IMG/VR virus record: IMGVR_UViG_3300030329_006012
Coordinates: 32,001-96,000 of that record
DNA length: 64,000 bases
Origin: a virus
Reading direction: 5' to 3' (one strand)
Shown here: positions 30,205-50,464 of the stretch, in pieces
Layout: each line of letters begins with the position of its first letter
Position numbering within the stretch: the first letter of the stretch is position 1
Program-made: the position numbers and the translations under genes
The notes under the pieces: generated by a model
The model's database searches: none
Seen by the model: only the letters and a program-made list of their open reading frames with translations
Told to the model about the DNA's origin: nothing

Positions 30205-30219
30205 GATTTGGAGAAATTG

Positions 30220-30834
30220 ATGTCAAAGTATTTATTAACCGAGTATTACGAGCTTTGCCCAAATGGGACATGCGAAGACCTGCTTACTGAGGCAGAGAAG
30301 CAATTGGTCAAGAACGGAGCAATGTTTTTGACTGGAGTTATGCAACGAGCTAACGCCAAAAACGGCAACGGCCGTCGCTATCCAAGGCCCGTGCTTGAGC
30401 GCGAGATGGAAAACTACAAGAAGCTCGTCCGAGATAGACGCGCCGTCGGCGAACTCGACCACCCGGACTCTGATGTTGTTAATTTAAAAAACGCATCTCA
30501 TATTGTTACAGAGGTTTGGTGGGACGGTGACGATGTTAAGGGGAAGGTTCAATTACTAGACACTCCTTCCGGACAGATTTTGAGATCACTGGTGAATGGT
30601 GGCGTTAAGTTGGGAATCTCTTCTCGTGGACTTGGCTCTGTTGCCCAGTCCGGCAACGACACCATTGTTCAGGAGGATTTTCAGCTGATATGTTTTGACT
30701 TTGTTTCAGAGCCCAGCACCACCGGTGCCTTTATGGTAAAGGAAAGTAAGAGTCGAGCCAACAATATCACCACAAAGGCAGATAGAATAAACAGAGCTTT
30801 GAACAACATTTTAAAGCCGTGGGAGAACAAATAA
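30220..30834 (+). CDS. gp21: Prohead core protease (T4 gp21-like)
   Basis: NGNGRRYP, GELDHP (catalytic His), LGISSRGLGS (catalytic Ser), FDFVSEPS. SD GGAGA favours ATG 30220. Confidence 0.93.
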   Translation: MSKYLLTEYYELCPNGTCEDLLTEAEKQLVKNGAMFLTGVMQRANAKNGNGRRYPRPVLEREMENYKKLVRDRRAVGELDHPDSDVVNLKNASHIVTEVWWDGDDVKGKVQLLDTPSGQILRSLVNGGVKLGISSRGLGSVAQSGNDTIVQEDFQLICFDFVSEPSTTGAFMVKESKSRANNITTKADRINRALNNILKPWENK

Positions 30835-33224: not shown

Positions 33225-33629
33225 ATGACTACGAAGAAAAAAGGCATTGCTGTCATAGCTGACAGCGGCGACGTCGCATTCAAATTCCTCGATGATGGTA
33301 CAAGTATTATAGGTAAAGATGAAAACAGTGTTCATTCTTTTACCGGGACTGTCAATGTAGAAGGCAAGATGGACATCAAAGGATCTCTATCTATGTCTGA
33401 GCGCATTGGCGGCTATAAATTTGGCCTACCATCCTTGAACGAAGACGGCACTGATGATTCAGTTGCACTTGAAGAATTACGTACTAACGAAAATGGAAAG
33501 TACAACGGTTTTATGTTTTATCTAAATGCTTCGTCGTCAGCCCCATTTGATCAGGAAAAGAAGATTTACTTTTGTGAGAACGGTGTTTGGTTTCCAAGCC
33601 CCTTTGTTGCTTTTAATAGTGAAGAATAA
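33225..33629 (+). CDS. Minimal member of the 'KG-V..KF..DG / YFCE' family (134 aa)
   Basis: SD GGAGG; N-terminal KKKGIAV...FKFLDDG; C-terminal YNGFMFYL...APFDQEKKIYFCENGVWFPSPF. Confidence 0.7.
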   Translation: MTTKKKGIAVIADSGDVAFKFLDDGTSIIGKDENSVHSFTGTVNVEGKMDIKGSLSMSERIGGYKFGLPSLNEDGTDDSVALEELRTNENGKYNGFMFYLNASSSAPFDQEKKIYFCENGVWFPSPFVAFNSEE

Positions 33630-33816: not shown

Positions 33817-36800
33817 ATGGCCATTAAAAAAGTAAAAGGAATAAAAGTATCCAAGTCCCTGTCGGACAAGTTTAAGTTTGACAAAGAGGGAGAATCTCAA
33901 ATAGGCTCCGGCGGCGAAGACGTGCATGTCATTGTCGGAGAGTCGGACATTGGTAATGATATGTCTCTAACCGGACAGGCCCATTTTGAAAAAAGAATAG
34001 CAGAAACACTCTTTGGAGTCCCGCAGCTCAACGGCGCCACACAAACCGCCGAATTACAAGATCTGATAGACAATGCTGCCGACCACGAGGGTTTTATTAT
34101 TTATTTAACGGCCCCATCGACGACTGCCCCTTTTACCCAGGGAGAGAAGTTTTATTTTTGCGAAAATGGTGTTTGGCACCAAAGCCCGTTCACTTCTAGT
34201 GATTCTGATGAGCCAGATCCCGACGACACCGACGGCGACGGAATAGATGATGTTGAAGATCCGCAGGTTACAGAAACGGTATCCACCACAGGAGCCACTG
34301 TTCAGGCCAGCGCCGCCGCACTGGAAATCCCCCCAAATGCATTGCCCGCCGCAGTGGACATATCAGTTGAAGTTGTTGATCCGGCCACAGTCTCAGACGC
34401 CGTTCTTGATGAGAAAACATTAACATCAGACGTGATCACCTTAACTCCTCACGGACAACAGTTCGCTGAACCAGTGAAGGTCACGATTAATGTTTCTAAA
34501 TTCATATGGAACCCAGACATTTATATACAAAGCTCGCCCGGTGCCACTTGGGAGCTTCACGAAACCCCAGTAGATGTGGACGGGAACAAGGTTTCTTTTG
34601 AGGTAACTTCATTCAGCTCTTATGCTGTTGTGGAGCCACCCCCCTCTCAGTACATTGTACTTGTTTACGAGGGCGACGGGAACTATTCTTTCAGGGCCAA
34701 TTTCGGCGAGGCCATCGGCGGCTTTCAATTCACGTTCGACGCCGGCTCTGCAGGAACCATTACACCTACCGCCGGCGCCCAAGTCGCCGAAGCAGGATGG
34801 TACTTTACCGCAAGCCCATCCTCAAAGACGGTATTGGCGTTCCCGTTTGACGGCAGGGAAATCGGGGCTGGTGAAGTCGAGCTCATTAGGTTCCATGCCT
34901 CGTCTAATTACTTGCCAACACCTCACTCCAATCTTCTTGAACCAATAGTACTCTCAAGGATCGACGGCACTCGAATTGATATGTCCGGTTTTGATTTTGA
35001 CGTTACACAATTGGACAATGCAGGTAGTTTCTCCGGAGTGGGAGATGCTGACGGCGACGGCGCGAATGATAATGTTGACGCATTCCCGAATGATCCATCT
35101 GAAACCCAAGACACCGACGGCGACGGAGTAGGCGATAATGCAGACGACCTCCCCAATGATCCCAGTGAGACTGTAGATAGCGATGGCGATGGTGTTGGAG
35201 ACAATTCAGATTGGAAACCAAACGATCCCGCTGAATCTGCTGACACCGACGGTGACGGAGTTGGTGACAATGCCGACGCCTTCCCAAATGATGCATCTGA
35301 AACAGTAGATTCCGACAATGACGGAGTTGGAGACAATTCAGATTGGAAACCAAACGATCCCGCTGAATCTGCTGATAGTGATGGTGACGGAGTTGGAGAC
35401 AACGCCGACGCTTTCCCGAATGATGCTTTGGAGACTGTTGACACCGATGGCGATGGCACAGGCGACAATGCCGATGTCTTCCCCAACGATGCCACCGAAG
35501 ACACCGACACCGATGGCGATGGAGTTGGCGATAATCTCGACTACGCTCCAAGCGATCCGGCAATCACAATACCCCCACAGCCCCCAGCCGGCTCAACGTT
35601 CGTTCTTAGAGTCTACACAGATGATGAAGTCCACGTTCCGGGCTCCACATCCTGGGATCGGTGGGGAGGACAACTTGTTGTTGACGGAACTGATTACAGC
35701 GACCTTCTTTCTACAGAAAGTGAGGAAACCATAACACTACCATATGATGCTAATCAGGTTGGGTATAGCACTGTTGATATCAATGACATAGGCGGCGACG
35801 GGGGGATAAAAGTAGAATTTCTTCACCCCGTATATGGCTGGCAATTCCCCGTTTACAGCATGGGCTCCATGAACCAGTCCGGCTGGCCAAATGGTGCTCC
35901 CGCCGGGGCACAAAACTTTTCTGATCCAGCACACTGGGAGGGCCCCCTGCCTGTCACGTTTCAATACTTAAGCACAGACGCAACGGACTTCGTGGTCAGG
36001 GATCAGCAGAATAACGTAATGGTCTCTACCGATGATCTCGGATCTGTTCCGGCCCCCCCGATGGTATTCTTTGATAATGCCGATCTAGTTGTAAACGAGA
36101 CTCACCCCCATAACTCCAATCAGGAGGCGTATGCCGGCTGGCGCCTGATGACAGCACTGGCAGGCGATGTTTTGTCCATTGATACATCAAAGTTCACTAT
36201 TGAAGATCTAGATGATCTTCCCGCTAACACTACTGTTAAATTCTACTGGCGGATGAGAGAGGACAACGAGTCAGGAGGCAAAGATGATAAATACATTACA
36301 CCCGATGGCGACACTTCGTGGGGTCGGAATTCCGGTACCGCTACGAACACCATTACAATTCCCCAAGAATTTGCAGCGGCGAGTTGGTATGAGAAGCCGG
36401 CGAGCTCCTTTATTTATCTGGAGATGGATTTGGAAGACGCGGATGGAAATATAAAACAGATCAAAAACAACTCCGTCGGTGACACTGTGATCTACGCTTT
36501 AAATGAGAACGAAGTTGAAATGTGGAGCCGCTTAAATGACGGCCTTACAGTAGATACTCCTGTTGATTCAAGCCACATATCCCTCAGTCGTGAAAAGAAG
36601 TATGATAGCGAAGGTAGACTGTTTGTTGTGGAAGGAGACACTGTAACATTCACTCCACCAGAGCCAGTTGCCACAGTCAAGGATCCTTACGGAAACGATA
36701 TTTCAGGGCCCTTTGAAGCACAGTGGAGATCACGCGCCATCGTCGACAATGAATATGTTTATCATCTTTCTTCTGCACCTTGGATTGCCAATTTTTATTC

Positions 36801-37755
36801 CGCCTCTGACAAGCCGTCGTTCTCCATACCGGAGCTCCCAAGCCCTTCTTCTTGGTATGAGTTCTTCTATATTCAACAAAAATGGTCGAATGGAGATCAT
36901 CTTTTCCCCACCTATGGCGCCGCGTACTCACAAATACTGCGGCAGACAAAGAATGAAATGGACTATATGTGGCTCACCGAGCCGTTAGCAAGCTTCGATG
37001 CCCTGTGGGAAACAACAGAACCATCTTGGTTCGACGATGAAGATAGCCTTACCAACTCGGCCAGCATGCACCTGCGCCAACTTTATGATCTGTATTACGT
37101 CGCTGCAGCCAACAATGGCTCACTCGACGTCAGCCATTACGATGTGCACTTTGAACACCGCATCGGAGACTTGAATTCTCAAATTGCTGTAGTAGATAAA
37201 TACTTTCCTGATACCTCGACAAGTGAGCATCACGAGAAATATCAGGAACTCGTGGCATGGGCATCGACATATGAAAATCCCCTCACCCCCATGATGGAAG
37301 TTCTTCACGATGCATCAATTATAAAAGAGGAGCTCGTCGCCGACTACACCATCCACGCCCTCAGAGACTACGGAATGTATTTCCCAGAAAACATCTATGG
37401 TCTGTGGCAACACGCTTTAGACGCTGAACCGAGCGATCAAGGCACTTGGCGCTGGTGGGCCCACAACGATGACGGCACAGACCCCACAAGGTTGAATGTT
37501 GATTTTTCTTCTGTGCTGTCTGAATATCCGAACCCTGCAGACTGGGCAACAGCACAACTTAACGCACTCAGCGAGATGAGAGAAGACATATCGAACGAGT
37601 TTGGTGGTTATGATGAGGCTGCCTTCGAGTCGGCAGATTATGGAGACTACTACTGCTACTCCGGGTGGAGTAACTATGAGCAAAAAAAACCTATCTCTTA
37701 CAATTCAGTCATTGATTTTCTCACTGAAGTGAGTGAGCTAACACCACCTGAGTAA
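33817..37755 (+). CDS. Multidomain adhesin-like virion protein (1,312 aa): YFCE module, ZU5-like, cohesin-like, thrombospondin type-3 repeats
   Basis: YFCENGVWHQSPF; LEIPPNAL...ITLTPHGQQFAEPVKVTI (ZU5-like); EAIGGFQFTF (cohesin-like); repeated DGDGVGDNADAFPND. Confidence 0.75.
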   Translation: MAIKKVKGIKVSKSLSDKFKFDKEGESQIGSGGEDVHVIVGESDIGNDMSLTGQAHFEKRIAETLFGVPQLNGATQTAELQDLIDNAADHEGFIIYLTAPSTTAPFTQGEKFYFCENGVWHQSPFTSSDSDEPDPDDTDGDGIDDVEDPQVTETVSTTGATVQASAAALEIPPNALPAAVDISVEVVDPATVSDAVLDEKTLTSDVITLTPHGQQFAEPVKVTINVSKFIWNPDIYIQSSPGATWELHETPVDVDGNKVSFEVTSFSSYAVVEPPPSQYIVLVYEGDGNYSFRANFGEAIGGFQFTFDAGSAGTITPTAGAQVAEAGWYFTASPSSKTVLAFPFDGREIGAGEVELIRFHASSNYLPTPHSNLLEPIVLSRIDGTRIDMSGFDFDVTQLDNAGSFSGVGDADGDGANDNVDAFPNDPSETQDTDGDGVGDNADDLPNDPSETVDSDGDGVGDNSDWKPNDPAESADTDGDGVGDNADAFPNDASETVDSDNDGVGDNSDWKPNDPAESADSDGDGVGDNADAFPNDALETVDTDGDGTGDNADVFPNDATEDTDTDGDGVGDNLDYAPSDPAITIPPQPPAGSTFVLRVYTDDEVHVPGSTSWDRWGGQLVVDGTDYSDLLSTESEETITLPYDANQVGYSTVDINDIGGDGGIKVEFLHPVYGWQFPVYSMGSMNQSGWPNGAPAGAQNFSDPAHWEGPLPVTFQYLSTDATDFVVRDQQNNVMVSTDDLGSVPAPPMVFFDNADLVVNETHPHNSNQEAYAGWRLMTALAGDVLSIDTSKFTIEDLDDLPANTTVKFYWRMREDNESGGKDDKYITPDGDTSWGRNSGTATNTITIPQEFAAASWYEKPASSFIYLEMDLEDADGNIKQIKNNSVGDTVIYALNENEVEMWSRLNDGLTVDTPVDSSHISLSREKKYDSEGRLFVVEGDTVTFTPPEPVATVKDPYGNDISGPFEAQWRSRAIVDNEYVYHLSSAPWIANFYSASDKPSFSIPELPSPSSWYEFFYIQQKWSNGDHLFPTYGAAYSQILRQTKNEMDYMWLTEPLASFDALWETTEPSWFDDEDSLTNSASMHLRQLYDLYYVAAANNGSLDVSHYDVHFEHRIGDLNSQIAVVDKYFPDTSTSEHHEKYQELVAWASTYENPLTPMMEVLHDASIIKEELVADYTIHALRDYGMYFPENIYGLWQHALDAEPSDQGTWRWWAHNDDGTDPTRLNVDFSSVLSEYPNPADWATAQLNALSEMREDISNEFGGYDEAAFESADYGDYYCYSGWSNYEQKKPISYNSVIDFLTEVSELTPPE
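35041..35570 (+). repeat. Thrombospondin type-3-like Ca-binding repeats (about 8 x 22 aa)
   Basis: D(T/S)DGDGVGDN(A/S)D(AF/WK)PND(P/A)xE repeated; includes an exact 50-nt duplication at 35194-35243 / 35326-35375. Confidence 0.9.
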
Positions 37756-37921: not shown

Positions 37922-38028
37922 CTGGCACGAGAGTGTGCCATTTTTTATAATGCATACTCTCTACTTGTACTCCGTAGGCGGAGTGCAGGTGTTAACTTAA
38001 AATTTAATTCCTTGGAGGGAAAAATATT

Positions 38029-40479
38029 ATGCCAGATAATAATAATAAAGTGAAGGGTTTGGCCGTTTTTAGCGGCACAAGCACCGTACACAAATTTACA
38101 GAAGACGGCAAAGCTAACCTTAATGATCTACTTGTTGTAGGTGAAGGTGAAACTAAGGACGTCGTTGAACTTAAAGGTCGTGTCTTTTTGAACGATCTTG
38201 ATAAAGATAAGCCACTGCACGAAGCCATTAACAAGATGGTCAGTGACGAGCAGAAAACACGTGGCGAAGAAGTTGCGAGATTAGACGCAGAAGATTCTCT
38301 GATCAAAGCCGAACTCGCAGGTGAAGCTAAAGCAATCCGACAAGAGCTCGCAGGTGAAGCTAAAGCAATCCGTGGAGAACTCGAAGGTGAAGCTAACGCA
38401 ATCCGTGGAGAACTCGCAGGTGAAGCTAAAGCAATCCGTGGAGAACTCGCAGGTGAAGCTAAAGCAATCCGCGAAGAACTGAAAGACGCTCGCGGCGAAC
38501 TCGGTGGCGAAGTTGCCGATGTTAGACGTGATCTCGTTGGCGAAATGGACTCAATGAAAAACGATATCGGTGGGGACATTGATCACGTCAAAGGTGAGTT
38601 GGAAACAAAGATCGACAATACCAAAAGTTCGTTGCAAACTAAAATTGATGAAAACAAAGATGCAGCCGCAAACGCTCGCTCTTTGTTGGCTCAAGACATT
38701 GCTGATAACACCGCCGCAATTGATTTTGTTAAAGATAATGCAAATCCAGACGCTATCGATTCCTTAACTGAAATCATTAAAGCGTATTCAGATGCTGACG
38801 GTGAATTGACCAATGCATTTGTTGCTTTGCTCGGTGAAGAGAAGAAAGCACGTGGCGAAGATTACATACGCCTGAAAGACAACCTTGCCAAAGAAGCCAG
38901 CATGCGCCAAGCCGACGTTCAGTACTTGGTGGGTGAAGATAACTTCTTTTTCCAAATGGGCATGGATGCTCTCAGCCAGGTTGATAAAAAGGTCGATGCC
39001 AACAACCAAATCATTGGCCAAAATGCCGTGAGTATCATCCAACAAAGCCAAAACTTTGATGGTTACGTGGTGGTTAACGACGCCAAGGTTGATGCGAATG
39101 CGACCGACATAGCCAGCCTCCAGCAATTCGCTGGTGCCGCAGTCGCGGATATCAATAATCAACAAGTGATTCAAGATAACGCCATCGCCGCTAACACCAC
39201 GTCGATTGGTCAAAATGCTCAAGATATTGCAAACAACACCGACAAAATCACTCTTGATGTTCAAACATTGGAAAATACCATCAACACCTCTTTTGGTGAA
39301 TTCAAAGATGAGATGAGTGCTGAACATGGTAAAATTCGCGATGATGTGAATGCTGAATTCGTCCGAGCGAGAGGTGAAGAAGACGCCATTCGCGCCGAAC
39401 TCGCAGGTGAAGCTAAAGCAATCCGTGGAGAACTCGCAGGTGAAGCTAACGCAATCCGCGATGAACTCAAAGGTGAAGCTAGTGCAATCCGCGAAGAACT
39501 CGCAGGTGAAGCTGATGCAATCCGTGGAGAGCTCGCAGGTGAATCTGCTTTTCTCCTTATGAGGCTCGAAGGTGAAGTAATGTCAGTCCGCGATGAACTC
39601 GCAGGTGAAACAGCATTGATTCACAGTCGCATGGGAGATCATCAGGCAACTGGTCATCCGACCCTCGCTGATGCTATCGTTGCTAATAAGAGCGCAATTG
39701 ATTTTGTTAAAGATAATGCAGATAAAGACGCTATCGATTCCTTAACTGAAATCATCAAGGCGTATTCGGATGCTGACGGTGAATTGAACAATGCATTTGT
39801 TGCTTTGCTCGGTGAAGAGACGAAAGCACGTGAAAAGGATGTCAAAAACCTGAAATCTGCACTCGAAGGTGAAACTAGAGCAATCCGCGAACAACTCGCA
39901 GGTGAAGCTAAAGCAATCCGTGGAGAACTCGCAGGTGAAGCTAAAGCAATCCGTGGAGAACTCAAAGGTGAAATCAACAACCTACAGGGTGAATTAAGCA
40001 GTGATCTTGGCGAGTTCAAAACAAAGACTGGTGAAGATCTCACATCTTTGATGAACTATTCAGACGGCCGCGATAATACTATCACGGATCATGTTAACAA
40101 CCTTACAGAAAAGACCTTTGATGGAAACAACATGAGTCTTTCTGGTTTTGCTCAATTGAATTCGGTTGAAGCAGCTTCAGTAGCTGTTACTTCTGCTTTT
40201 AGAATTCCACACATCACCACTGTTCAACAGTTGACTGATATGCAGGATACCTACACAAAAGCAAACGGTATGATGTTCTATTTGGACATGGCTGATGATG
40301 CTGGTCGTACTGGCTTCGAAGAAGGGTATAAATTATACTTCTGCGAAGGCAACGAGTGGTATCCTTCCCCGTTCCACAGTGAACCACAAAGTGAAGACTC
40401 TGAACGAACTGGCTCTACTTGGGGAGAAATCCTCACTGCTGCCGGCGAAGAACTGGAGTCCTTTGACCCTTTAGCGTAG
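38029..40479 (+). CDS. Coiled-coil fibre protein (816 aa) with 11-residue ELAGEAKAIRG repeats and a C-terminal YFCE module
   Basis: N-terminal KVKGLAV...HKFTEDG; three hendecad repeat clusters; duplicated AIDSLTEII fibre motif; YFCEGNEWYPSPF. Confidence 0.8.
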   Translation: MPDNNNKVKGLAVFSGTSTVHKFTEDGKANLNDLLVVGEGETKDVVELKGRVFLNDLDKDKPLHEAINKMVSDEQKTRGEEVARLDAEDSLIKAELAGEAKAIRQELAGEAKAIRGELEGEANAIRGELAGEAKAIRGELAGEAKAIREELKDARGELGGEVADVRRDLVGEMDSMKNDIGGDIDHVKGELETKIDNTKSSLQTKIDENKDAAANARSLLAQDIADNTAAIDFVKDNANPDAIDSLTEIIKAYSDADGELTNAFVALLGEEKKARGEDYIRLKDNLAKEASMRQADVQYLVGEDNFFFQMGMDALSQVDKKVDANNQIIGQNAVSIIQQSQNFDGYVVVNDAKVDANATDIASLQQFAGAAVADINNQQVIQDNAIAANTTSIGQNAQDIANNTDKITLDVQTLENTINTSFGEFKDEMSAEHGKIRDDVNAEFVRARGEEDAIRAELAGEAKAIRGELAGEANAIRDELKGEASAIREELAGEADAIRGELAGESAFLLMRLEGEVMSVRDELAGETALIHSRMGDHQATGHPTLADAIVANKSAIDFVKDNADKDAIDSLTEIIKAYSDADGELNNAFVALLGEETKAREKDVKNLKSALEGETRAIREQLAGEAKAIRGELAGEAKAIRGELKGEINNLQGELSSDLGEFKTKTGEDLTSLMNYSDGRDNTITDHVNNLTEKTFDGNNMSLSGFAQLNSVEAASVAVTSAFRIPHITTVQQLTDMQDTYTKANGMMFYLDMADDAGRTGFEEGYKLYFCEGNEWYPSPFHSEPQSEDSERTGSTWGEILTAAGEELESFDPLA
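38311..38480 (+). repeat. 33-nt coding tandem repeats, cluster 1 (others at about 39397-39612 and 39862-39972)
   Basis: GAACTCGCAGGTGAAGCTAAAGCAATCCGTGGA iterated with few substitutions. Confidence 0.92.
38716..38854 (+). repeat. 139-nt near-identical dispersed repeat (second copy 39694-39832)
   Basis: The copies differ at about 8 positions and encode AIDFVKDNA..DAIDSLTEIIKAYSDADGEL.NAFVALLGEE.KAR. Confidence 0.9.
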
Positions 40480-40529
40480 AGGGATCTAGTGGAAGTAAGC
40501 CTGATTTTTCAGGCAACTTCCCTGATCCC
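40467..40529 (+). promoter_or_regulatory. Predicted -1 programmed ribosomal frameshift signal (C CCU UUA + 7-nt spacer + stem-loop)
   Basis: X XXY YYZ heptamer in the correct phase at 40467-40473. Nested stem GGGATC/GATCCC, GGAAGT/ACTTCC, GCCTGA/TCAGGC spans 40481-40529. The -1 frame opens exactly at the heptamer (TGA at 40464-40466). Confidence 0.82.
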
Positions 40530-42329
40530 GGAGTAAATCCATTTGCTGGATACTCTTGGTCTGCCAGTGTTAGGAGCATGGTTGAGCCCGACGGCTTTAT
40601 CTCTCCTTCTGCATGGGCTGCCCTTCCGGCTTCAAATGTTGAACCGTGGGACGCTATTAAGGACAATGCTGAATGGCTTGGCCTATGGAACACCTATGCA
40701 TCTGCCCAGATAGAGCATGCTCGCCAATATTGGGAGTGGCTCGCTCTTTGGGAGGGTGGCAAACCACCTTCTTCAGTAGAGGCACTGGCTGATGCTGCAA
40801 AAGATGCCCAAACCGCGCTGCAAAACGCCATCAATGATGGAGAAGTCGGCCGCGCTGTAGCTGGAGCATATTTAGCAGCAGGCGTCCAAGATAAGAGAGA
40901 TATAGACTCTTACTCTACTGATATGATGGATGAGGCGAAAAAATCATATGACGCGGAGCGAAAAGTCATGTTTGGTCAACTGAAAGACTTTGAAAGGCTT
41001 GTCGTGGATATGAGAAGAAAGTTCACTATTGGTGTCCGAGAAATGCTCATCGAAGCAGCTAAGTCTAGTTCCGGAGTAATTAATGATCATCCGGTCATTT
41101 CTTATACTGGAAGTTACACCATCAACGTGCTTCAGGGCGATGCCGCACCAGACCTTTTGGCTGGCGTGACTGCTACTGATGACCAAGACGGTGATTTGAC
41201 AGCTTCAATTGTCGTAGATGACGATGGCCTCGACATGAGTGAGGTTGGGTCATACACTATCGTTTATAGTGTTACAGATTCCAACGGCTCTGAGTCGTCC
41301 AATAATCGAATGGTTCAGGTTGAGCCAGATGTCAACTCTTTGTTGGCTTCTGATCTTCCGGTACCAACCCTTGACGGGTTTGATTCTGAAGGACGAGCTG
41401 TTATCTCAACAGGAGAAATAAGTCTCCCATTTAATCCTAATCATTTTTATTATGCGGATTCAAATGGAGATAGGTACTTCCTAGAGCTCAAGACCGGATG
41501 GTATCGCTTTGGCGACACTTCCAATGTTGTGTGGGGATCCAGTGTCCTTCTTAATGCAAATGCATCGCAATGGACAGAAGACGAGAATGGCAGATTTGTC
41601 AGTCCCGGCTGGACCTATGCGATGTCGTGTCAAGACGGTACTCCAGAGAACTACACGAATTCTTCGGCCTATGGCAAGAAAATATATGACGGTGACACCT
41701 ACTGGTACAAGTTAGATTGGAGGAAGTATAACCAGAACACATATCAATATACCGATGTGCACAATTCTGGTGATACACTTTCCGTCTCGCTTCCATCAAG
41801 GCCGGCTCCAACATTTCCTGCAATTGTGACAACGGATGTTTCATTTGTTCCTGACAACTTGCGAGACAATCCCCACAATGTAGCTGGAATTTTGGATTTT
41901 GAAATGCCTTGGAGGTTTACGCAAGATCCAAGTTCATACATGGACAGTGGCAACAGAGTAGTTCTGGATAATGGAGATACGCTATATGCTCAAGCCCACA
42001 CCAGAACCAAGGTTTTCCGCGATGGAGAGCAGATAGCGTGGTCTGGCTGGTCTCAGCGTTGGGGATCCGATTATACTTATGTCGATTTAGTCGATGACGG
42101 AAACGGATTGTATCAGATCACCAATGGTGGTACAGACACAAGAACACTTAACTTCTGGAATCACAGCACTCAAGAACTATCTTACGAAATGCAGTGGGGC
42201 GATACAGTACGCTTGACTCATGGTATGGTTCTTTATTTGTACGATGCCGATGGCAACTATGTTGCGTCGCTGGACAACTTTGGTGTAACACCAATGGTTA
42301 GCGAATTTGTTCTAGAAGAAGACGAATAA
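40467..42329 (+). CDS. -1-frame extension of the 816-aa fibre containing an Ig-like (DUF5011/HYR-like) domain; fused product about 1,433 aa
   Basis: The frame is open 111 nt upstream of the ORF-track ATG 40578, whose AGGAG is only 1 nt away. Ig-like segment HPVISYTG...GVTATDDQDGDLT..IVV......SEVGSYTIVYSVTDSNG...RMVQV at about 41085-41325. Confidence 0.78.
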   Translation, partial: PFSVEGSSGSKPDFSGNFPDPGVNPFAGYSWSASVRSMVEPDGFISPSAWAALPASNVEPWDAIKDNAEWLGLWNTYASAQIEHARQYWEWLALWEGGKPPSSVEALADAAKDAQTALQNAINDGEVGRAVAGAYLAAGVQDKRDIDSYSTDMMDEAKKSYDAERKVMFGQLKDFERLVVDMRRKFTIGVREMLIEAAKSSSGVINDHPVISYTGSYTINVLQGDAAPDLLAGVTATDDQDGDLTASIVVDDDGLDMSEVGSYTIVYSVTDSNGSESSNNRMVQVEPDVNSLLASDLPVPTLDGFDSEGRAVISTGEISLPFNPNHFYYADSNGDRYFLELKTGWYRFGDTSNVVWGSSVLLNANASQWTEDENGRFVSPGWTYAMSCQDGTPENYTNSSAYGKKIYDGDTYWYKLDWRKYNQNTYQYTDVHNSGDTLSVSLPSRPAPTFPAIVTTDVSFVPDNLRDNPHNVAGILDFEMPWRFTQDPSSYMDSGNRVVLDNGDTLYAQAHTRTKVFRDGEQIAWSGWSQRWGSDYTYVDLVDDGNGLYQITNGGTDTRTLNFWNHSTQELSYEMQWGDTVRLTHGMVLYLYDADGNYVASLDNFGVTPMVSEFVLEEDE

Positions 42330-42383: not shown

Positions 42384-42413
42384 AAAGCACCCCCCTTGCG
42401 GGGGTGCTTTTTT
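42384..42413 (+). terminator. Intrinsic terminator
   Basis: AAAGCACCCCC-CTTGC-GGGGGTGCTTT followed by TTT. Confidence 0.88.
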
Positions 42414-46684: not shown

Positions 46685-49600
46685 GTGTCAGATAACGACA
46701 ACAAATGGGAACAACCGGCAGCTCCTCCTCCCCCTCTGTTTACGGGTAAGAAAGAAAAAGACCTCGTAAAACAGGTGACTGATGAGGTCATTGAACGTGT
46801 TATTGGCACGTCCATACTTTACTACCCCATCAGCCTTGCACATTCAGATTACCATCCGCTCTATGGCGAGGCCATAAAGAAGACCTATCTGCCTCCCGTC
46901 CACGTAGAAGTGCTTGCAGAGTGGGAGGGCGAAGAGACAACCACTACGGGATTTGGCATAGATAAGAAATCTTCTGTGACCATTCACTTCCACAAGCGCC
47001 GCCTGACGGAAGATCAGAATTTATTCGTCCGAGAGGGAGATTTCATCCAATATGGCGAGCAGAAGTACGAGATCATCACCCTTGGGCAACCAAAGCAGCT
47101 ATTTGGCCAGCCAGACTCTAAGATAGAGATTTCGGCCAAGTGTATTCGCGCCAGAGACGGCACTTTCCCATCGGAAGCATACCCCAATCCGGAAGAAGAT
47201 GATCCGCGATTCACCGCACCACCAGCCTGCGATCCAGTTCATGAAATACGAGTTTTAACGGGAGATACCACATCTACTGGCGGCGCCGGAGAGCAGCCAT
47301 GCGAACAGGTCTACGAGAGACCCGGCACCCCGCCACCACCACTCTTTACAGGCAAGAAAGAGTCGAACTTGGTGAAGCAGGTCGGAGATGAACTACTAGA
47401 GAGGGTCATTGGCCAGCAAATAGTTTATTTTCCAATCTCTCTAGGAAACTCAGATTATCACGAGCTCTACGGAGAGTCAATAAATAAGACTTTTTTGCCA
47501 CCCATTAGGGTTTTCGCCGCCGTAGACTGGAAGGGCAGCGATACAACCACCACTAATTTTGGGATTGACAGGAAGTCCGAGATTGAGGTGAAGTTTCACA
47601 AGAGGCGCCTCACAGAAGACCAAAATCTCTTTGTCCGCGAAGGTGATTTTGTCCTCTATGGTAAAATATTGTATGAGATCGTTACAGTCGGCCAACCCAG
47701 ACTTCTTTTCGGAAAGATAGATGAGAAGTATGAGGTTGTTGCAAGCTGCATTAGGGCTAGAGAAGGAACTTTCAGGCTATCAGAGGTGCAGGGTACAGTT
47801 AGTGAGTTTGATCTTGATTCTGTAACGGCATGCGAAAATGCCAATCTCGTAATTCCCGACGGCGTTGATAATACCATGTCAAATGTTGGCGCTGGAGCAG
47901 GGGTATTTAAGAATAAGACAGGCATCAACTTTAACATGAAAACTTTGGTGGAGGGGGACAACATAACCCTCACTTCCACTGCAGATGAGATAACCATCAA
48001 TTCTGTTGGTGCAGGCGGTGATTGGGATGGACAGAGAGATGGCGACGCAGCGATTACGGGGTCTCTTGTAGTGACCGACTCCACCTTTTTTGGAGACGCC
48101 CTTAGCGACACTCACACGTTTACAGGCTCAATCCTCCAAACAGGCTCAGGTGGGACATCTATATTTAATGATGAAGTCCGCGTTGCGGGAAATTTTTCTG
48201 CATCGTATCTTTCTGGCGACGGCTCCGGCCTTACCGGAGTAACAGGAGATTGGGATGGTCAACACATTGGCAACGCAGCAATTACAGGTAGCTTAGAGGT
48301 CTTAAATTCAACCACTTTCGGGGCCCTCTCAACAGACGTACACAAATTCACAGGATCTCTTCAAATCGGTAGCGCATCGGCCCAACACGCATCTAACTTA
48401 TCTCACGGAGGCGTACCAGCCTTCGAGGTTAGAAACAATGGACAACTTAGAACTAAAAACGACGGCGCCAAAGGATTTGAATTCGTGTCCGAGAATACCC
48501 CCAACGGCGGCGGCGGCAATGTTGCCACATTTTATATGGGCGACACCGATCCCGAAAACCCGAAAGAGGTTATGCGATTGGACAGAGCCGGCGGCTTTTA
48601 TGGCAAAGAAGCTCTGCATCTTACGTCACAGGGCTCTGGAGACAACAGGGATGTCCGCATCGCCGGCGCCTTTGATGAGGCGGGCGGCCATGCCGGCATC
48701 TCTCCCTATTATGACGCTACTGACGACGGATTAACCGGCTCCATGCTTGGGAGAGCTCACAAGAGGTGGAAAGAGGTCCACGCGAGAACAGCGTCTTTTG
48801 AAGAAGCCCGAAAGGTGGTTCCAACCACCTCCATCAATCATCACGGCTACGAACCCTACCTGGCAAACCACAACTATCTAACAAACTTTACAGCATGGGG
48901 GAACCCTAGTGTCTATGACCCGCTTACCAACAACATACTGGCGCGAGGAGATATCAAATTTGATATAAGTAGAACAGTGTATGACTCGGCCGGAGTGGAG
49001 ATTGCAAGTGATGCCTCTGGCAATATTGCCTATCCCGCAGGTCCACTTAGCAATACTGGGCTTGGGCTCCCATTCGATGGGGTCTATCAACAGTTGTGCT
49101 GGAACCCGCTAACGGCGAGCACCGTCATTAAGACAAACATTGATTTCACTACTAACGAATACTATGGCCCGGCAACCTCATCTATAGTCTACTCTCTTGG
49201 GAAGGTGGTGGTCCACTATGCCTCTAACGCAACCGGATCGTCCGTATCGGGGAGAATAAGGAGATACGACAAGAACCTCAGCTCCTCATTTTGGCATCCA
49301 CTGGATAACCTGCAAGATATTTCCACAGATCCCAGATACACAATTCATATGCTGGATATCCCCAATTACAACTATATGGAGGAGCTAGAAATCTCTATAA
49401 CAGCATCTGAAAATGGCTACAATCTGGGCGGCGCCCCCTCTTATATGGCTATCTCGGAAATTGAGTGCTTCCTTGACAATCTCATTCCCTATAATCACAA
49501 TCTGCCCAAAATTGATGGATATAGCGACAATGCTATGTACGGCGACTTGGATATGCGAGGAGGGAATGATCAAAAGAATATCGTTTTAGATGCCAGCACC

Positions 49601-50464
49601 GGAGATATTACGATGTCTGGCACTCTTTCAACTCATGGGGTGACAATGAGGGGCCACATCCTGCCAGATGAGGACGACGTTTATGACATAGGATCGCCAT
49701 CTAAGCAGATTAGAGATATCTATGTGTCCACCGGATCGATCATTTTTGGCGGCACTCACGCGATAAGTATTGATCCCGAATCCAACGGCTTTTCCTTTGG
49801 TGTGGTGGACGGCGTAGATGTTCCAGCCGCTGGCTTTACTATACCGCAATTAACTAACGAAGAACTCTCCTCTTTGCAGCCCAAAAACGGAACAATGGTC
49901 TATGACACCACTCAGGAAAAATTCCTTTTTTGTCAAGGCGGAGAATGGCTCTCGCTGGGATCTCAATCCGGAGGAGGAGAACAACCTACGATTCCACGAG
50001 GATCGGGAATCCTCAGCCTGACGGATGATGGCGACGGCCCCAATCGTCAGCTGCTGGAGGAGTATGCGGAGAATTCTGTTAGTTATTCTGGGAAGAGTTT
50101 ATATTTGGCCAATGTATCGGGAATACCACTAGAAGCATTCAGCCAAGGTGCCAAGTTCTACTTTAATGAAGGTGGTGTGTGGCACCCATCCCACTTTTTC
50201 AGCAATGATAAGGTTGAGTATCAAGGCGATCCGATTTATCCTGATATGCAAGATATATTATCTCTCAATGGTGCATCCGCTGCAGATCGGGCAATTCTCA
50301 CCGGATTGGATCAAAATGCGTCATCTTACGGCGGCCGAGCTATTTACTTAGGTGCAACCGGAAGTGCTCCCATTGGAGTGTTTTCCCAAGAGAATAAATA
50401 CTACTTTAATGAAGGTGGGGTTTGGCATGCCAGCAGCTTCTATACACTGAAGGATGAGGATTAA
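46685..50464 (+). CDS. Tandem duplicated neck/head-closure (gp14-like) domains fused to a fibre with two C-terminal YFNE modules (1,259 aa)
   Basis: GTG start with SD AGGAGG; two copies of PPPLFTGKKE...LYGE.I.KT.LPP...HKRRLTEDQNLFVREGDF..YG...YEI; DWDG...ITGSL repeats; YDIGSPSKQIRDIYVS. Confidence 0.7.
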   Translation: MSDNDNKWEQPAAPPPPLFTGKKEKDLVKQVTDEVIERVIGTSILYYPISLAHSDYHPLYGEAIKKTYLPPVHVEVLAEWEGEETTTTGFGIDKKSSVTIHFHKRRLTEDQNLFVREGDFIQYGEQKYEIITLGQPKQLFGQPDSKIEISAKCIRARDGTFPSEAYPNPEEDDPRFTAPPACDPVHEIRVLTGDTTSTGGAGEQPCEQVYERPGTPPPPLFTGKKESNLVKQVGDELLERVIGQQIVYFPISLGNSDYHELYGESINKTFLPPIRVFAAVDWKGSDTTTTNFGIDRKSEIEVKFHKRRLTEDQNLFVREGDFVLYGKILYEIVTVGQPRLLFGKIDEKYEVVASCIRAREGTFRLSEVQGTVSEFDLDSVTACENANLVIPDGVDNTMSNVGAGAGVFKNKTGINFNMKTLVEGDNITLTSTADEITINSVGAGGDWDGQRDGDAAITGSLVVTDSTFFGDALSDTHTFTGSILQTGSGGTSIFNDEVRVAGNFSASYLSGDGSGLTGVTGDWDGQHIGNAAITGSLEVLNSTTFGALSTDVHKFTGSLQIGSASAQHASNLSHGGVPAFEVRNNGQLRTKNDGAKGFEFVSENTPNGGGGNVATFYMGDTDPENPKEVMRLDRAGGFYGKEALHLTSQGSGDNRDVRIAGAFDEAGGHAGISPYYDATDDGLTGSMLGRAHKRWKEVHARTASFEEARKVVPTTSINHHGYEPYLANHNYLTNFTAWGNPSVYDPLTNNILARGDIKFDISRTVYDSAGVEIASDASGNIAYPAGPLSNTGLGLPFDGVYQQLCWNPLTASTVIKTNIDFTTNEYYGPATSSIVYSLGKVVVHYASNATGSSVSGRIRRYDKNLSSSFWHPLDNLQDISTDPRYTIHMLDIPNYNYMEELEISITASENGYNLGGAPSYMAISEIECFLDNLIPYNHNLPKIDGYSDNAMYGDLDMRGGNDQKNIVLDASTGDITMSGTLSTHGVTMRGHILPDEDDVYDIGSPSKQIRDIYVSTGSIIFGGTHAISIDPESNGFSFGVVDGVDVPAAGFTIPQLTNEELSSLQPKNGTMVYDTTQEKFLFCQGGEWLSLGSQSGGGEQPTIPRGSGILSLTDDGDGPNRQLLEEYAENSVSYSGKSLYLANVSGIPLEAFSQGAKFYFNEGGVWHPSHFFSNDKVEYQGDPIYPDMQDILSLNGASAADRAILTGLDQNASSYGGRAIYLGATGSAPIGVFSQENKYYFNEGGVWHASSFYTLKDED

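What the first reader, a model, noticed from the sequence alone, without database searches (positions are those of the whole stretch)
40464..42329. -1 programmed frameshift that would append a 618-aa Ig-containing extension to a coiled-coil fibre
Seen in sequence: the 816-aa ORF ends ...GAC CCT TTA GCG TAG, which places an X XXY YYZ heptamer (C CCU UUA, 40467-40473) in the correct phase one codon before its stop. The -1 frame has a stop (TGA 40464-40466) immediately before the heptamer and is then open to 42329. Exactly 7 nt downstream a 49-nt nested stem-loop begins (GGGATC/GATCCC, GGAAGT/ACTTCC, GCCTGA-UUUU-TCAGGC; 40481-40529). The ORF-track start (ATG 40578) has its AGGAG only 1 nt away, and the 37 codons upstream of it read like protein (GSSGSKPDFSGNFPDPGVNPF). 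Established: heptamer + 5-9 nt spacer + stem-loop is the canonical -1 PRF signal, and phages add Ig-like domains to capsid and tail proteins by frameshifting. Inference: the virion carries an 816-aa fibre and a rarer ~1,433-aa form with a DUF5011-like Ig domain and a putative receptor-binding tip, in a fixed ratio. Here the target is an accessory fibre, not the capsid or tail tube.
Basis: partly seen in the sequence, partly recalled or inferred. Interest (0 to 1): 0.9.

Follow-up and report, generated by a model that had tools for sequence, protein, structure and literature searches.

The report
Frameshift site joining two fibre genes
A marine T4-like phage very probably uses a classical ribosomal -1 frameshift signal at the end of an 816-residue fibre gene to make a second, 1,433-residue form with an extra Ig-containing end piece; the trick is known in phages, but here it sits in a fibre family and adds an unusually large payload.

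Summary
ORF1 (38029-40479) ends GAC CCT TTA GCG TAG, with an in-phase C CCU UUA heptamer. The -1 frame opens right at the heptamer and runs 620 codons. A 20-bp hairpin starts 7 nt downstream (-32 kcal/mol, z -5.6) and is the most stable 60-nt fold on the + strand of the 190-kb genome.

It is not an assembly error: eight assemblies carry the identical junction without indels.

Two metagenomic relatives (ORF2 about 32% identical) have the same layout. Both keep the ...SFDPLA* end, the identical heptamer, ORF2 in the -1 frame, and a -32 kcal/mol hairpin at the same 7-nt spacing with a different inner sequence. The -1 frame is conserved as protein upstream of the called starts (NPF, VRS, with synonymous codon differences). 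Those starts are not homologous and lack usable Shine-Dalgarno sites.

Fibre relatives without ORF2 stop right after the C-terminal module and lack the 30-residue tail that carries the slip site. A window paralog and another relative carry payloads in frame at that point.

Verdict: a genuine -1 programmed frameshift (about 0.85), a new member of the known class of phage structural-protein extension by frameshifting. Efficiency, virion location and payload function are untested. The scan's other note on this site is from the same genome.

The parts
37923..37940 (+). Terminator-like hairpin plus T-run that closes the upstream gene and marks the start of the ORF1-ORF2 unit
37954..38028 (+). 5' leader of ORF1 with a GGAGG site 8 nt before the ATG. 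It is about 85% identical to the leader in relative L013, although the fibre stalks have diverged.
38029..40479 (+). ORF1, the zero-frame product of 816 aa. It has an N-terminal motif shared with paralogs, a roughly 650-aa coiled-coil stalk with ELAGEAKAIRG-type repeats, a C-terminal module and a tail.
40267..40374 (+). C-terminal 'YFCE' module (ORF1 residues 747-782). It is conserved in all fibre relatives and forms part of the predicted homotrimer interface.
40375..40476 (+). 34-residue tail (HSE...SFDPLA) found only in fibres followed by ORF2. It carries the slip site and lies outside the predicted trimer interface.
40467..40473 (+). Slippery heptamer C CCU UUA, in phase. It is identical in L003 and L013.
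40474..40480 (+). 7-nt spacer containing the zero-frame stop TAG (40477-40479)
40481..40529 (+). Stimulatory hairpin of 20 bp at -32 kcal/mol. The base stem GGGAUC/GAUCCC is conserved, while the inner stems differ in relatives but remain paired.
40473..42329 (+). -1 frame extension of 618 codons from AGC, plus the stop. The predicted transframe product is 1,433 aa.
40467..40577 (+). The 37 codons of the -1 frame ahead of the annotated ATG. They contain no start codon and are conserved as protein (NPF, VRS) with synonymous differences in relatives.
41106..41321 (+). Ig-like domain PF16403 (extension residues 214-285)
41334..42326 (+). Beta-rich C-terminal region of about 330 aa with no family hit. 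It is the putative distal or binding part.
42384..42410 (+). Strong intrinsic terminator (11-bp stem plus T-run) that closes the unit. A like terminator follows ORF2 in L003.

Best explanation
ORF1 and ORF2 are one recoded gene. Most ribosomes translate ORF1 and stop at TAG 40477, giving an 816-aa fibre subunit that probably forms trimers.

A fraction of ribosomes is held up by the 20-bp hairpin, which sits 7 nt past the slip site at the mRNA entry channel. While CCU and UUA occupy the P and A sites, the Pro and Leu tRNAs slip back one base to CCC and UUU. Translation then continues in the -1 frame for 618 more codons.

The product is a 1,433-aa subunit with the junction ...ESFDPL-SVEGSSGSK.... 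Behind the C-terminal module it has a flexible Gly/Ser/Pro linker, a helical region, an Ig-like domain and a beta-rich end domain. The short-to-long ratio is set by frameshift efficiency, so fibres would carry the payload on only some chains.

Shown here: the signal, its uniqueness in the genome, its conservation, and protein-level conservation of the -1 frame ahead of any start codon. Inferred: the slippage itself, its efficiency, trimer composition, virion location and binding function.
For: 1. The signal is canonical. It has an in-phase X XXY YYZ heptamer, a 7-nt spacer and a -32.1 kcal/mol hairpin with z -5.6. That hairpin is the most stable 60-nt fold on the genome's + strand. This is the only terminal heptamer in the genome with both a long -1 ORF and a strong fold.

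2. C_CC.U_UU.A is listed among heptamers that frameshift above 0.1% in E. coli without any stimulator and are under-represented in its genes (PMC4066793).

3. L003 and L013 show the same layout. Their ORF2 is 32% identical to the window's and their ORF1 end is 64-65% identical. Both have the ...SFDPLA* end, the identical heptamer, ORF2 in the -1 frame open from the heptamer, and hairpins of -32.1 and -31.5 kcal/mol starting 7 nt downstream. The inner stems and the encoded peptide differ from the window's.

4. The -1 frame is conserved as protein ahead of the called starts:
- NPF is AAT CCA TTT in the window and AAC CCG TTT in L003.
- VRS is GTT AGG AGC in the window and GTG AGA TCT in L003.
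- The two L003/L013 differences in this 84-nt stretch are both synonymous in the -1 frame.

5. The called starts are not homologous. The window ATG aligns with CTC in L003, the L003 GTG aligns with GTT in the window, and the L013 caller chose an ATG ten codons further on. None has a usable SD, while neighbouring genes do.

6. Fibre relatives without ORF2 (L001, L014, P0157, P0160 and others) end directly after the module and are followed by a terminator. The slip-site tail occurs only where ORF2 follows.

7. The architecture 'module then payload' exists as a single chain in paralog g33817 and in P0168.

8. Eight assemblies from several samples and assemblers have the identical 401-nt junction with no indels and 2-5 SNPs elsewhere.

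9. One transcription unit is bounded by terminators.

10. A homotrimer model of the last 129 residues of ORF1 scores 0.87 against a best control of 0.11. The mark was reached by 20 of 30 solved pairs and 1 of 23 single chains. Runs agree in at least 89% of contacts and pLDDT is at least 71. The tail lies outside the interface. The model supports trimerisation but does not show it.
Against: - There is no direct evidence of the product: no proteome, ribosome profile or reporter assay.
- Only two clearly independent lineages carry the arrangement. L003 and L013 share an 80-98% identical block from -520 to +140 around the site while their flanks are 45-65% identical. That block may be a recombined module rather than independent conservation.
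- With so few sequences, formal covariation support for the hairpin is weak.
- Z ZZN = U UUA is not among the best bacterial A-site motifs (H_HH.U_UU.Y; the tetramer U_UUA is only 1.8-3.6 times background; PMC4066793), so efficiency may be low.
- The host and its tRNA set are unknown.
- An AGGAG next to ATG 40578 leaves some room for separate initiation in this one phage.
Confidence: 0.85

Rival explanations
1. ORF1 and ORF2 are two ordinary genes. ORF2 starts on its own at ATG 40578, by direct initiation or by re-initiation after the ORF1 stop. The hairpin serves another purpose, such as mRNA stability, processing or throttling of ORF2 translation.
For: - Gene callers annotate two genes in all assemblies.
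- An AGGAG lies next to the ATG.
- Overlapping or adjacent genes in -1 register are common in this genome.
Against: - The SD spacing is 1 nt, against 6-9 nt elsewhere.
- L003 and L013 have no SD at their called starts, and those starts are at non-homologous positions.
- The stretch ahead of the starts is stop-free and conserved as protein in the -1 frame.
- This reading does not explain the conserved in-phase heptamer, the fixed 7-nt spacing, or why the extra ORF1 tail exists only where ORF2 follows.
Confidence: 0.08
2. Both routes operate. Frameshifting gives the fusion, and some free ORF2 is also made from ATG 40578 in this phage.
For: The AGGAG-ATG pair is present in the window only. Free and fused forms coexist in the Orsay virus CP-delta system (PMC5344674, abstract).
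Against: The SD spacing is poor. No equivalent start exists in the relatives. The first 37 codons are conserved.
Confidence: 0.05
3. The frame break is an artefact or a recent inactivating indel in what is really one continuous 1,430-aa gene.
For: In-frame payload versions exist in the family (g33817, P0168).
Against: - The junction is identical in eight assemblies made with four pipelines from several samples, with SNPs elsewhere but no indels.
- The same frame break recurs in relatives that are only 32% identical in ORF2.
- A random indel would not create a heptamer, a spacer and the genome's strongest hairpin.
Confidence: 0.02

Closest known systems
C-terminal Ig-like extensions of phage structural proteins made by programmed frameshifting (T3 capsid gene 10, Lactobacillus phage A2 capsid, Listeria phages A118/A500/PSA capsid and tail proteins; reviewed in PMC5009743)
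   Same: - The frameshift lies at the very end of a structural gene.
- Two products come from one gene.
- The extension contains an Ig-like domain.
- In-frame and frameshifted versions coexist among relatives, as the review notes.
   Different: - The carrier is a coiled-coil fibre of an unnamed family, not a capsid or tail-tube protein.
- The extension is 618 aa with three regions (helical, Ig, beta-rich), not a single small domain of about 100 aa.
Tail assembly chaperone G/GT-type -1 frameshift of tailed phages (Xu, Hendrix and Duda 2004, as cited in PMC7230728 and PMC12846349)
   Same: [quoted passage not shown]
   Different: - The proteins are unrelated and the role is different (assembly chaperone, not virion fibre).
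- The genomic position differs: here the head module, not the region between tail tube and tape measure.
E. coli dnaX and IS3/IS911-type bacterial -1 frameshift signals (PMC4066793, PMC5009743)
   Same: The signal is an X XXZ ZZN heptamer with a downstream hairpin at a short spacing.
   Different: - The heptamer is C CCU UUA rather than A AAA AAG.
- No conserved upstream SD-like stimulator is present. A GGAG at 40455-40458 occurs in the window only and not in L003 or L013.
Orsay virus CP-delta fusion (PMC5344674, abstract)
   Same: A fibre-forming module becomes part of the virion through a ribosomal frameshift fusion to a structural protein.
   Different: - It is a eukaryotic RNA virus with unrelated proteins.
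- There the fibre is the extension, whereas here the fibre is the carrier.
T4 fibritin (wac) with its C-terminal foldon (from my own knowledge, not tested as homology)
   Same: It is a long coiled-coil fibre closed by a small C-terminal beta module that is predicted to trimerise.
   Different: No Pfam or PHROG hit to fibritin. Any similarity is by analogy only. T4 fibritin has no frameshift extension.

Membership tests
Canonical -1 programmed ribosomal frameshift signal | X XXY YYZ heptamer in the zero-frame phase | tested here: met
   C CCU UUA lies at 40467-40473 in phase and is identical in L003 and L013. The motif is shift-prone in E. coli (PMC4066793).
Canonical -1 programmed ribosomal frameshift signal | Stable downstream RNA structure 5-9 nt after the heptamer | tested here: met
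   The spacer is 7 nt and the hairpin is -32.1 kcal/mol with z -5.6. It is the strongest 60-nt fold on the genome's + strand. The relatives have the same spacing and stability.
Canonical -1 programmed ribosomal frameshift signal | The -1 frame is open from the slip site and encodes conserved protein with no start of its own | tested here: met
   The -1 frame has 620 open codons and no start codon for the first 37. NPF and VRS are conserved with synonymous differences.
Canonical -1 programmed ribosomal frameshift signal | Conservation of the site in relatives | tested here: met
   Three lineages share the site (window, L003, L013), but only two are clearly independent. No further relatives were found.
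Canonical -1 programmed ribosomal frameshift signal | Transframe protein observed | not testable with these tools
Pfam PF16403 Bact_surface_Ig-like (DUF5011) | Score above the curated gathering cut-off | tested here: met
   48.6 bits against a cut-off of 27, E 8e-13, extension residues 214-285. Thousands of Ig-repeat proteins match this stretch.
Phage Ig-like extension added by frameshift (class described in PMC5009743) | The Ig-like domain is reachable only by a frameshift from the 3' end of a virion structural gene | tested here: inconclusive
   The frame relation and the Ig domain are shown. That ORF1 is a virion protein is inferred from its place in the head module, its coiled coil and its trimer model; it was not observed.
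T4 fibritin / foldon | Sequence family match | tested here: not met
   No fibritin hit in Pfam or PHROGs at the thresholds used. The likeness is an analogy only.

The most novel reading that the evidence does not exclude
The frameshift may work as a symmetry-breaking device. It would load, on average, fewer than three (perhaps one) 618-aa payloads onto a trimeric fibre. A large, probably monomeric, binding module would then sit on a three-fold stalk without crowding.

The family as a whole would be a plug-in display system around one N-motif and one C-terminal module. Payloads are absent (g33225, P0160), in frame (g33817, P0168) or dosed by frameshift (g38029), so the mode of attachment tunes the copy number of adhesin tips on the virion.
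Probability: 0.3. Interest if true: 0.65.

Novelty: new member of a known kind. Interest (0 to 1): 0.5.

Why it matters
Gene callers split this gene in every public assembly, so the long form of the fibre is missing from all annotations.

If the signal works, it gives an uncultured, ocean-wide T4-like phage two versions of one fibre from a single gene. The phage was assembled from several Tara Oceans samples. That bears on how phages vary and dose their adhesins.

The site is also a clean natural test case for a non-A-rich bacterial slip motif (C CCU UUA) paired with a simple but very strong hairpin.

The family offers a direct comparison of three attachment modes on one scaffold: no payload, payload in frame, and payload by frameshift.

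Tried and rejected
**Searches that found no or few relatives**
- Phage GenBank collection, by DNA and by protein: no match.
- IMG/VR scans by protein, by alignment and by three DNA patterns: nothing carrying ORF2. Only L001 turned up, a fibre relative without ORF2.
- Metagenome scan with the ORF2 alignment: returned only the L003 contig again.
- Heptamer-context pattern in prokaryote genomes: four chance hits in unrelated MAGs with no related protein, rejected.
- Representative-library search: swamped by Ig-repeat proteins, with one true relative among the 150 listed.
- Word-index search of the ORF2 C-terminal part: found only the protein itself.

**Fold and family searches**
- AlphaFold model of the 620-aa extension: pLDDT 45.7, too poor for a fold search.
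- AlphaFold model of the 134-aa paralog: pLDDT 39.
- ESM Atlas: no usable feature hit, and structural TM scores were all below 0.4.
- Rfam: no family for the hairpin or the leader.
- psbA: absent, so there is no sign of a cyanophage host.

**Tools or analyses that could not settle the point**
- RNAalifold on a MAFFT alignment of three hairpins: the alignment is not structure-aware and the sequences are too few for meaningful covariation statistics.

**Mechanisms considered and rejected**
- Stop-codon read-through: the zero frame stops again 18 codons after TAG.
- Transcriptional slippage: there is no homopolymer run longer than three.
- A conserved upstream SD-like stimulator: the GGAG at 40455-40458 is not conserved in the relatives.


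Full report
**1. The observation**

The window is bases 32001-96000 of a 190,225-bp IMG/VR virus record. The surrounding genes are as follows:

| Gene | Start |
|---|---|
| Large terminase | 24942 |
| Portal | 26553 |
| Prohead protease | 30208 |
| gp23-type major capsid protein | 43609 |
| Head-tail adaptor | 45420 |
| Tail sheath | 51356 |

It is therefore a T4-like myovirus. It has no psbA.

ORF1 (38029-40479, 816 aa) ends GAC CCT TTA GCG TAG. The heptamer C CCT TTA at 40467-40473 is in X XXY YYZ phase. The -1 frame has TGA at 40464-40466 and is then open for 620 codons to 42329. The first possible start in that frame is ATG 40578, at codon 38. Its AGGAG is 1 nt away, whereas GGAG-type sites sit 6-9 nt upstream of most other genes in the window.

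Bases 40481-40529 fold into a 20-bp hairpin of -32.1 kcal/mol. Shuffles give -15.0 +/- 3.1, so z is -5.6, and none of 200 shuffles folds as well. No T-run follows it, so it is not a terminator. Real terminators bracket the pair at 37923-37940 and 42384-42410.

**2. Is it more than chance?**

In-phase heptamers near ORF ends are common: 36 occur in the last 20 codons of 256 ORFs in this genome. Only this one combines a very long -1 frame with a strong downstream fold, with a 70-nt MFE of -33.3 against -3 to -21 for all others. Among 19,017 overlapping 60-nt windows on the + strand (mean -10.2, sd 4.2), the window starting at 40481 is the most stable of all.

**3. It is not an artefact**

The exact ORF2 protein lies on eight contigs:
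- two SPAdes assemblies;
- two MEGAHIT assemblies;
- two Tara scaffolds;
- two Logan assemblies.

These come from several Tara Oceans samples, although two pairs share a run. All eight contain the identical 401-nt junction. They differ from the window at 2-5 SNP positions within up to 7.7 kb and have no indel. Raw reads could not be examined.

**4. Relatives that carry ORF2**

Relatives are rare. One full-length ORF2 relative (P0096, 32% identity) surfaced from the representative library and lies on a 3.9-kb marine contig, L003. A fibre relative (P0154) led to a second contig, L013. Both show the same design:
- ORF1 ends ...SFDPLA followed by TAG.
- The DNA GACCCTTTAGC-TAGAGGG is the same as in the window.
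- ORF2 is in the -1 frame and open from the heptamer.
- No start codon occurs until a GTG 28 codons in.

Each relative has its own hairpin starting exactly 7 nt after the heptamer, at -32.1 kcal/mol (z -5.2) and -31.5 kcal/mol (z -3.7). The base stem GGGAU(C/U)/GAUCCC is kept, with U.G or G.U replacing a Watson-Crick pair. One middle pair changes on both sides (U-A to G-C). The apical stem is replaced by a different, shorter one, and the encoded peptide differs. With three sequences, formal covariation statistics mean little.

**5. The stretch ahead of the annotated starts is coding**

In the -1 frame the three sequences share PFS-EG at the slip site, then DP-NPF and (A/S)VRS further on. The codon differences are synonymous:
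- AAT CCA TTT against AAC CCG TTT;
- GTT AGG AGC against GTG AGA TCT.

The window's ATG aligns with CTC in L003. L003's GTG aligns with GTT in the window. The caller chose yet another ATG in L013. None of these starts has an SD, while the neighbouring genes in L003 and L013 have good ones.

L003 and L013 differ at only 2 of 84 positions between the heptamer and the GTG, and both differences are synonymous in the -1 frame. There is a caveat. A block from about -520 to +140 around the site is 80-98% identical between these two contigs, while the flanks are 45-65% identical. The two may therefore share a recombined module and count as less than two independent witnesses.

**6. The fibre family**

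Other fibre relatives end directly after a conserved C-terminal module (G-MMFYLD...YFCE-G-W-SPF) and are followed by a terminator. These include L001, L014, P0157, P0160 and about ten more. They lack the roughly 30-residue tail that carries the slip site.

The same module occurs in four genes of the window. In paralog g33817 it is followed in frame by about 1,180 residues. In P0168 (1,499 aa) it is followed in frame by about 740 residues that are unrelated to ORF2. So 'module then payload' is an established single-chain architecture in this family. Here the payload is reached by a frameshift instead.

A homotrimer model of the last 129 residues of ORF1 scored 0.87, against 0.11 for the best of three controls. 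The mark was reached by 20 of 30 solved pairs and by 1 of 23 single chains. The runs agree in at least 89% of contacts, and pLDDT is at least 71. The interface covers residues 2-97 and leaves the tail free. This supports trimerisation but does not show it.

**7. Mechanism**

The Pro tRNA on CCU can re-pair with CCC, and the Leu tRNA on UUA can re-pair with UUU. Sharma et al. list C_CC.U_UU.A among motifs that shift above 0.1% in E. coli without a stimulator and that are avoided in its genes. The best U-type motifs end in U or C, and the tetramer U_UUA alone is weak (PMC4066793). Efficiency here therefore probably depends heavily on the hairpin.

The predicted long form has 815 + 618 = 1,433 residues. 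The extension is made of:
- a Gly/Ser/Pro linker;
- a helical region (about residues 31-200, from a low-confidence model);
- an Ig-like domain PF16403 (residues 214-285);
- a beta-rich end of about 330 residues with no family or fold assignment.

**8. Comparison with what is known**

C-terminal Ig-like extensions of phage capsid and tail proteins made by -1 or +1 frameshifting are well documented. So is the observation that relatives may carry the same extension in frame (PMC5009743). The present case fits that class. It differs in the carrier, which is a coiled-coil fibre of an unnamed family in the head module, and in the size and make-up of the payload. Literature searches found no description of a fibre gene extended in this way in a T4-like phage, but the searchable library is incomplete.

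**9. Verdict**

This is a genuine, conserved -1 programmed frameshift site (confidence about 0.85). It is a new member of a known kind and is of moderate interest. Untested are the efficiency, the presence of both forms in the virion, and what the payload binds.

Another first-stage note of this scan (e1-5810476) describes the same site in the same genome. The scan holds no instance on other DNA.

Noticed in passing
window 30810-30816 (gene 30208-30834): An in-phase U UUA AAG heptamer lies five codons before the stop of the prohead protease gene. The -1 frame continues into the next gene (to 31685), which sits in the scaffold position. That gene has a good GGGAG site 8 nt before ATG 30834, which overlaps the stop (TAATG), and there is no downstream structure (MFE -3.9). 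This is probably ordinary coupling, but a protease-scaffold fusion by frameshift is not excluded.
   Followed up: partly
window 33225-33629, 33817-37755, 38029-40479, 46685-50464: A module of about 35 residues, G..(F/I)YL...YF(C/N)E.G.W..S.F, occurs five times in four head/neck-region genes. Three of these genes also share an N-terminal K-KG-.V...KF..(D/E)G motif. The 134-aa protein g33225 is little more than these two motifs.
   Followed up: partly
window 37954-38028 and L013 17-93: The 5' leader of the fibre gene is about 85% identical between the window and L013 (ATACTCTCT..TTGTACTCCGTAGG.GG.GTGCA ... TTAAAATTTAATT), although the fibre stalks have diverged strongly. It may be a conserved promoter or regulatory leader. 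No Rfam match was found.
   Followed up: partly
L003 and L013, about -520 to +140 around the slip site: The mosaic is sharp. The C-terminal module, tail, slip site and first 45 codons or so of ORF2 are 80-98% identical, while the stalk and the ORF2 body are 45-65% identical. This suggests that the module and junction are exchanged as a cassette.
   Followed up: partly
L019 3001-7500 (P0168): A fibre relative of 1,499 aa carries an in-frame C-terminal payload of about 740 aa, made of three or four repeats of roughly 170 aa (FHLFY.GDK...QINEVPG...). The payload is unrelated to ORF2.
   Followed up: no
window 38310-39975: The ORF1 stalk is built from 11-residue ELAGEAKAIRG-type repeats in three clusters. 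It also contains two blocks of about 46 residues (AIDFVKDNA..DAIDSLTEIIKAYSDADGEL.NAFVALLGEE) that are duplicated about 325 residues apart.
   Followed up: no
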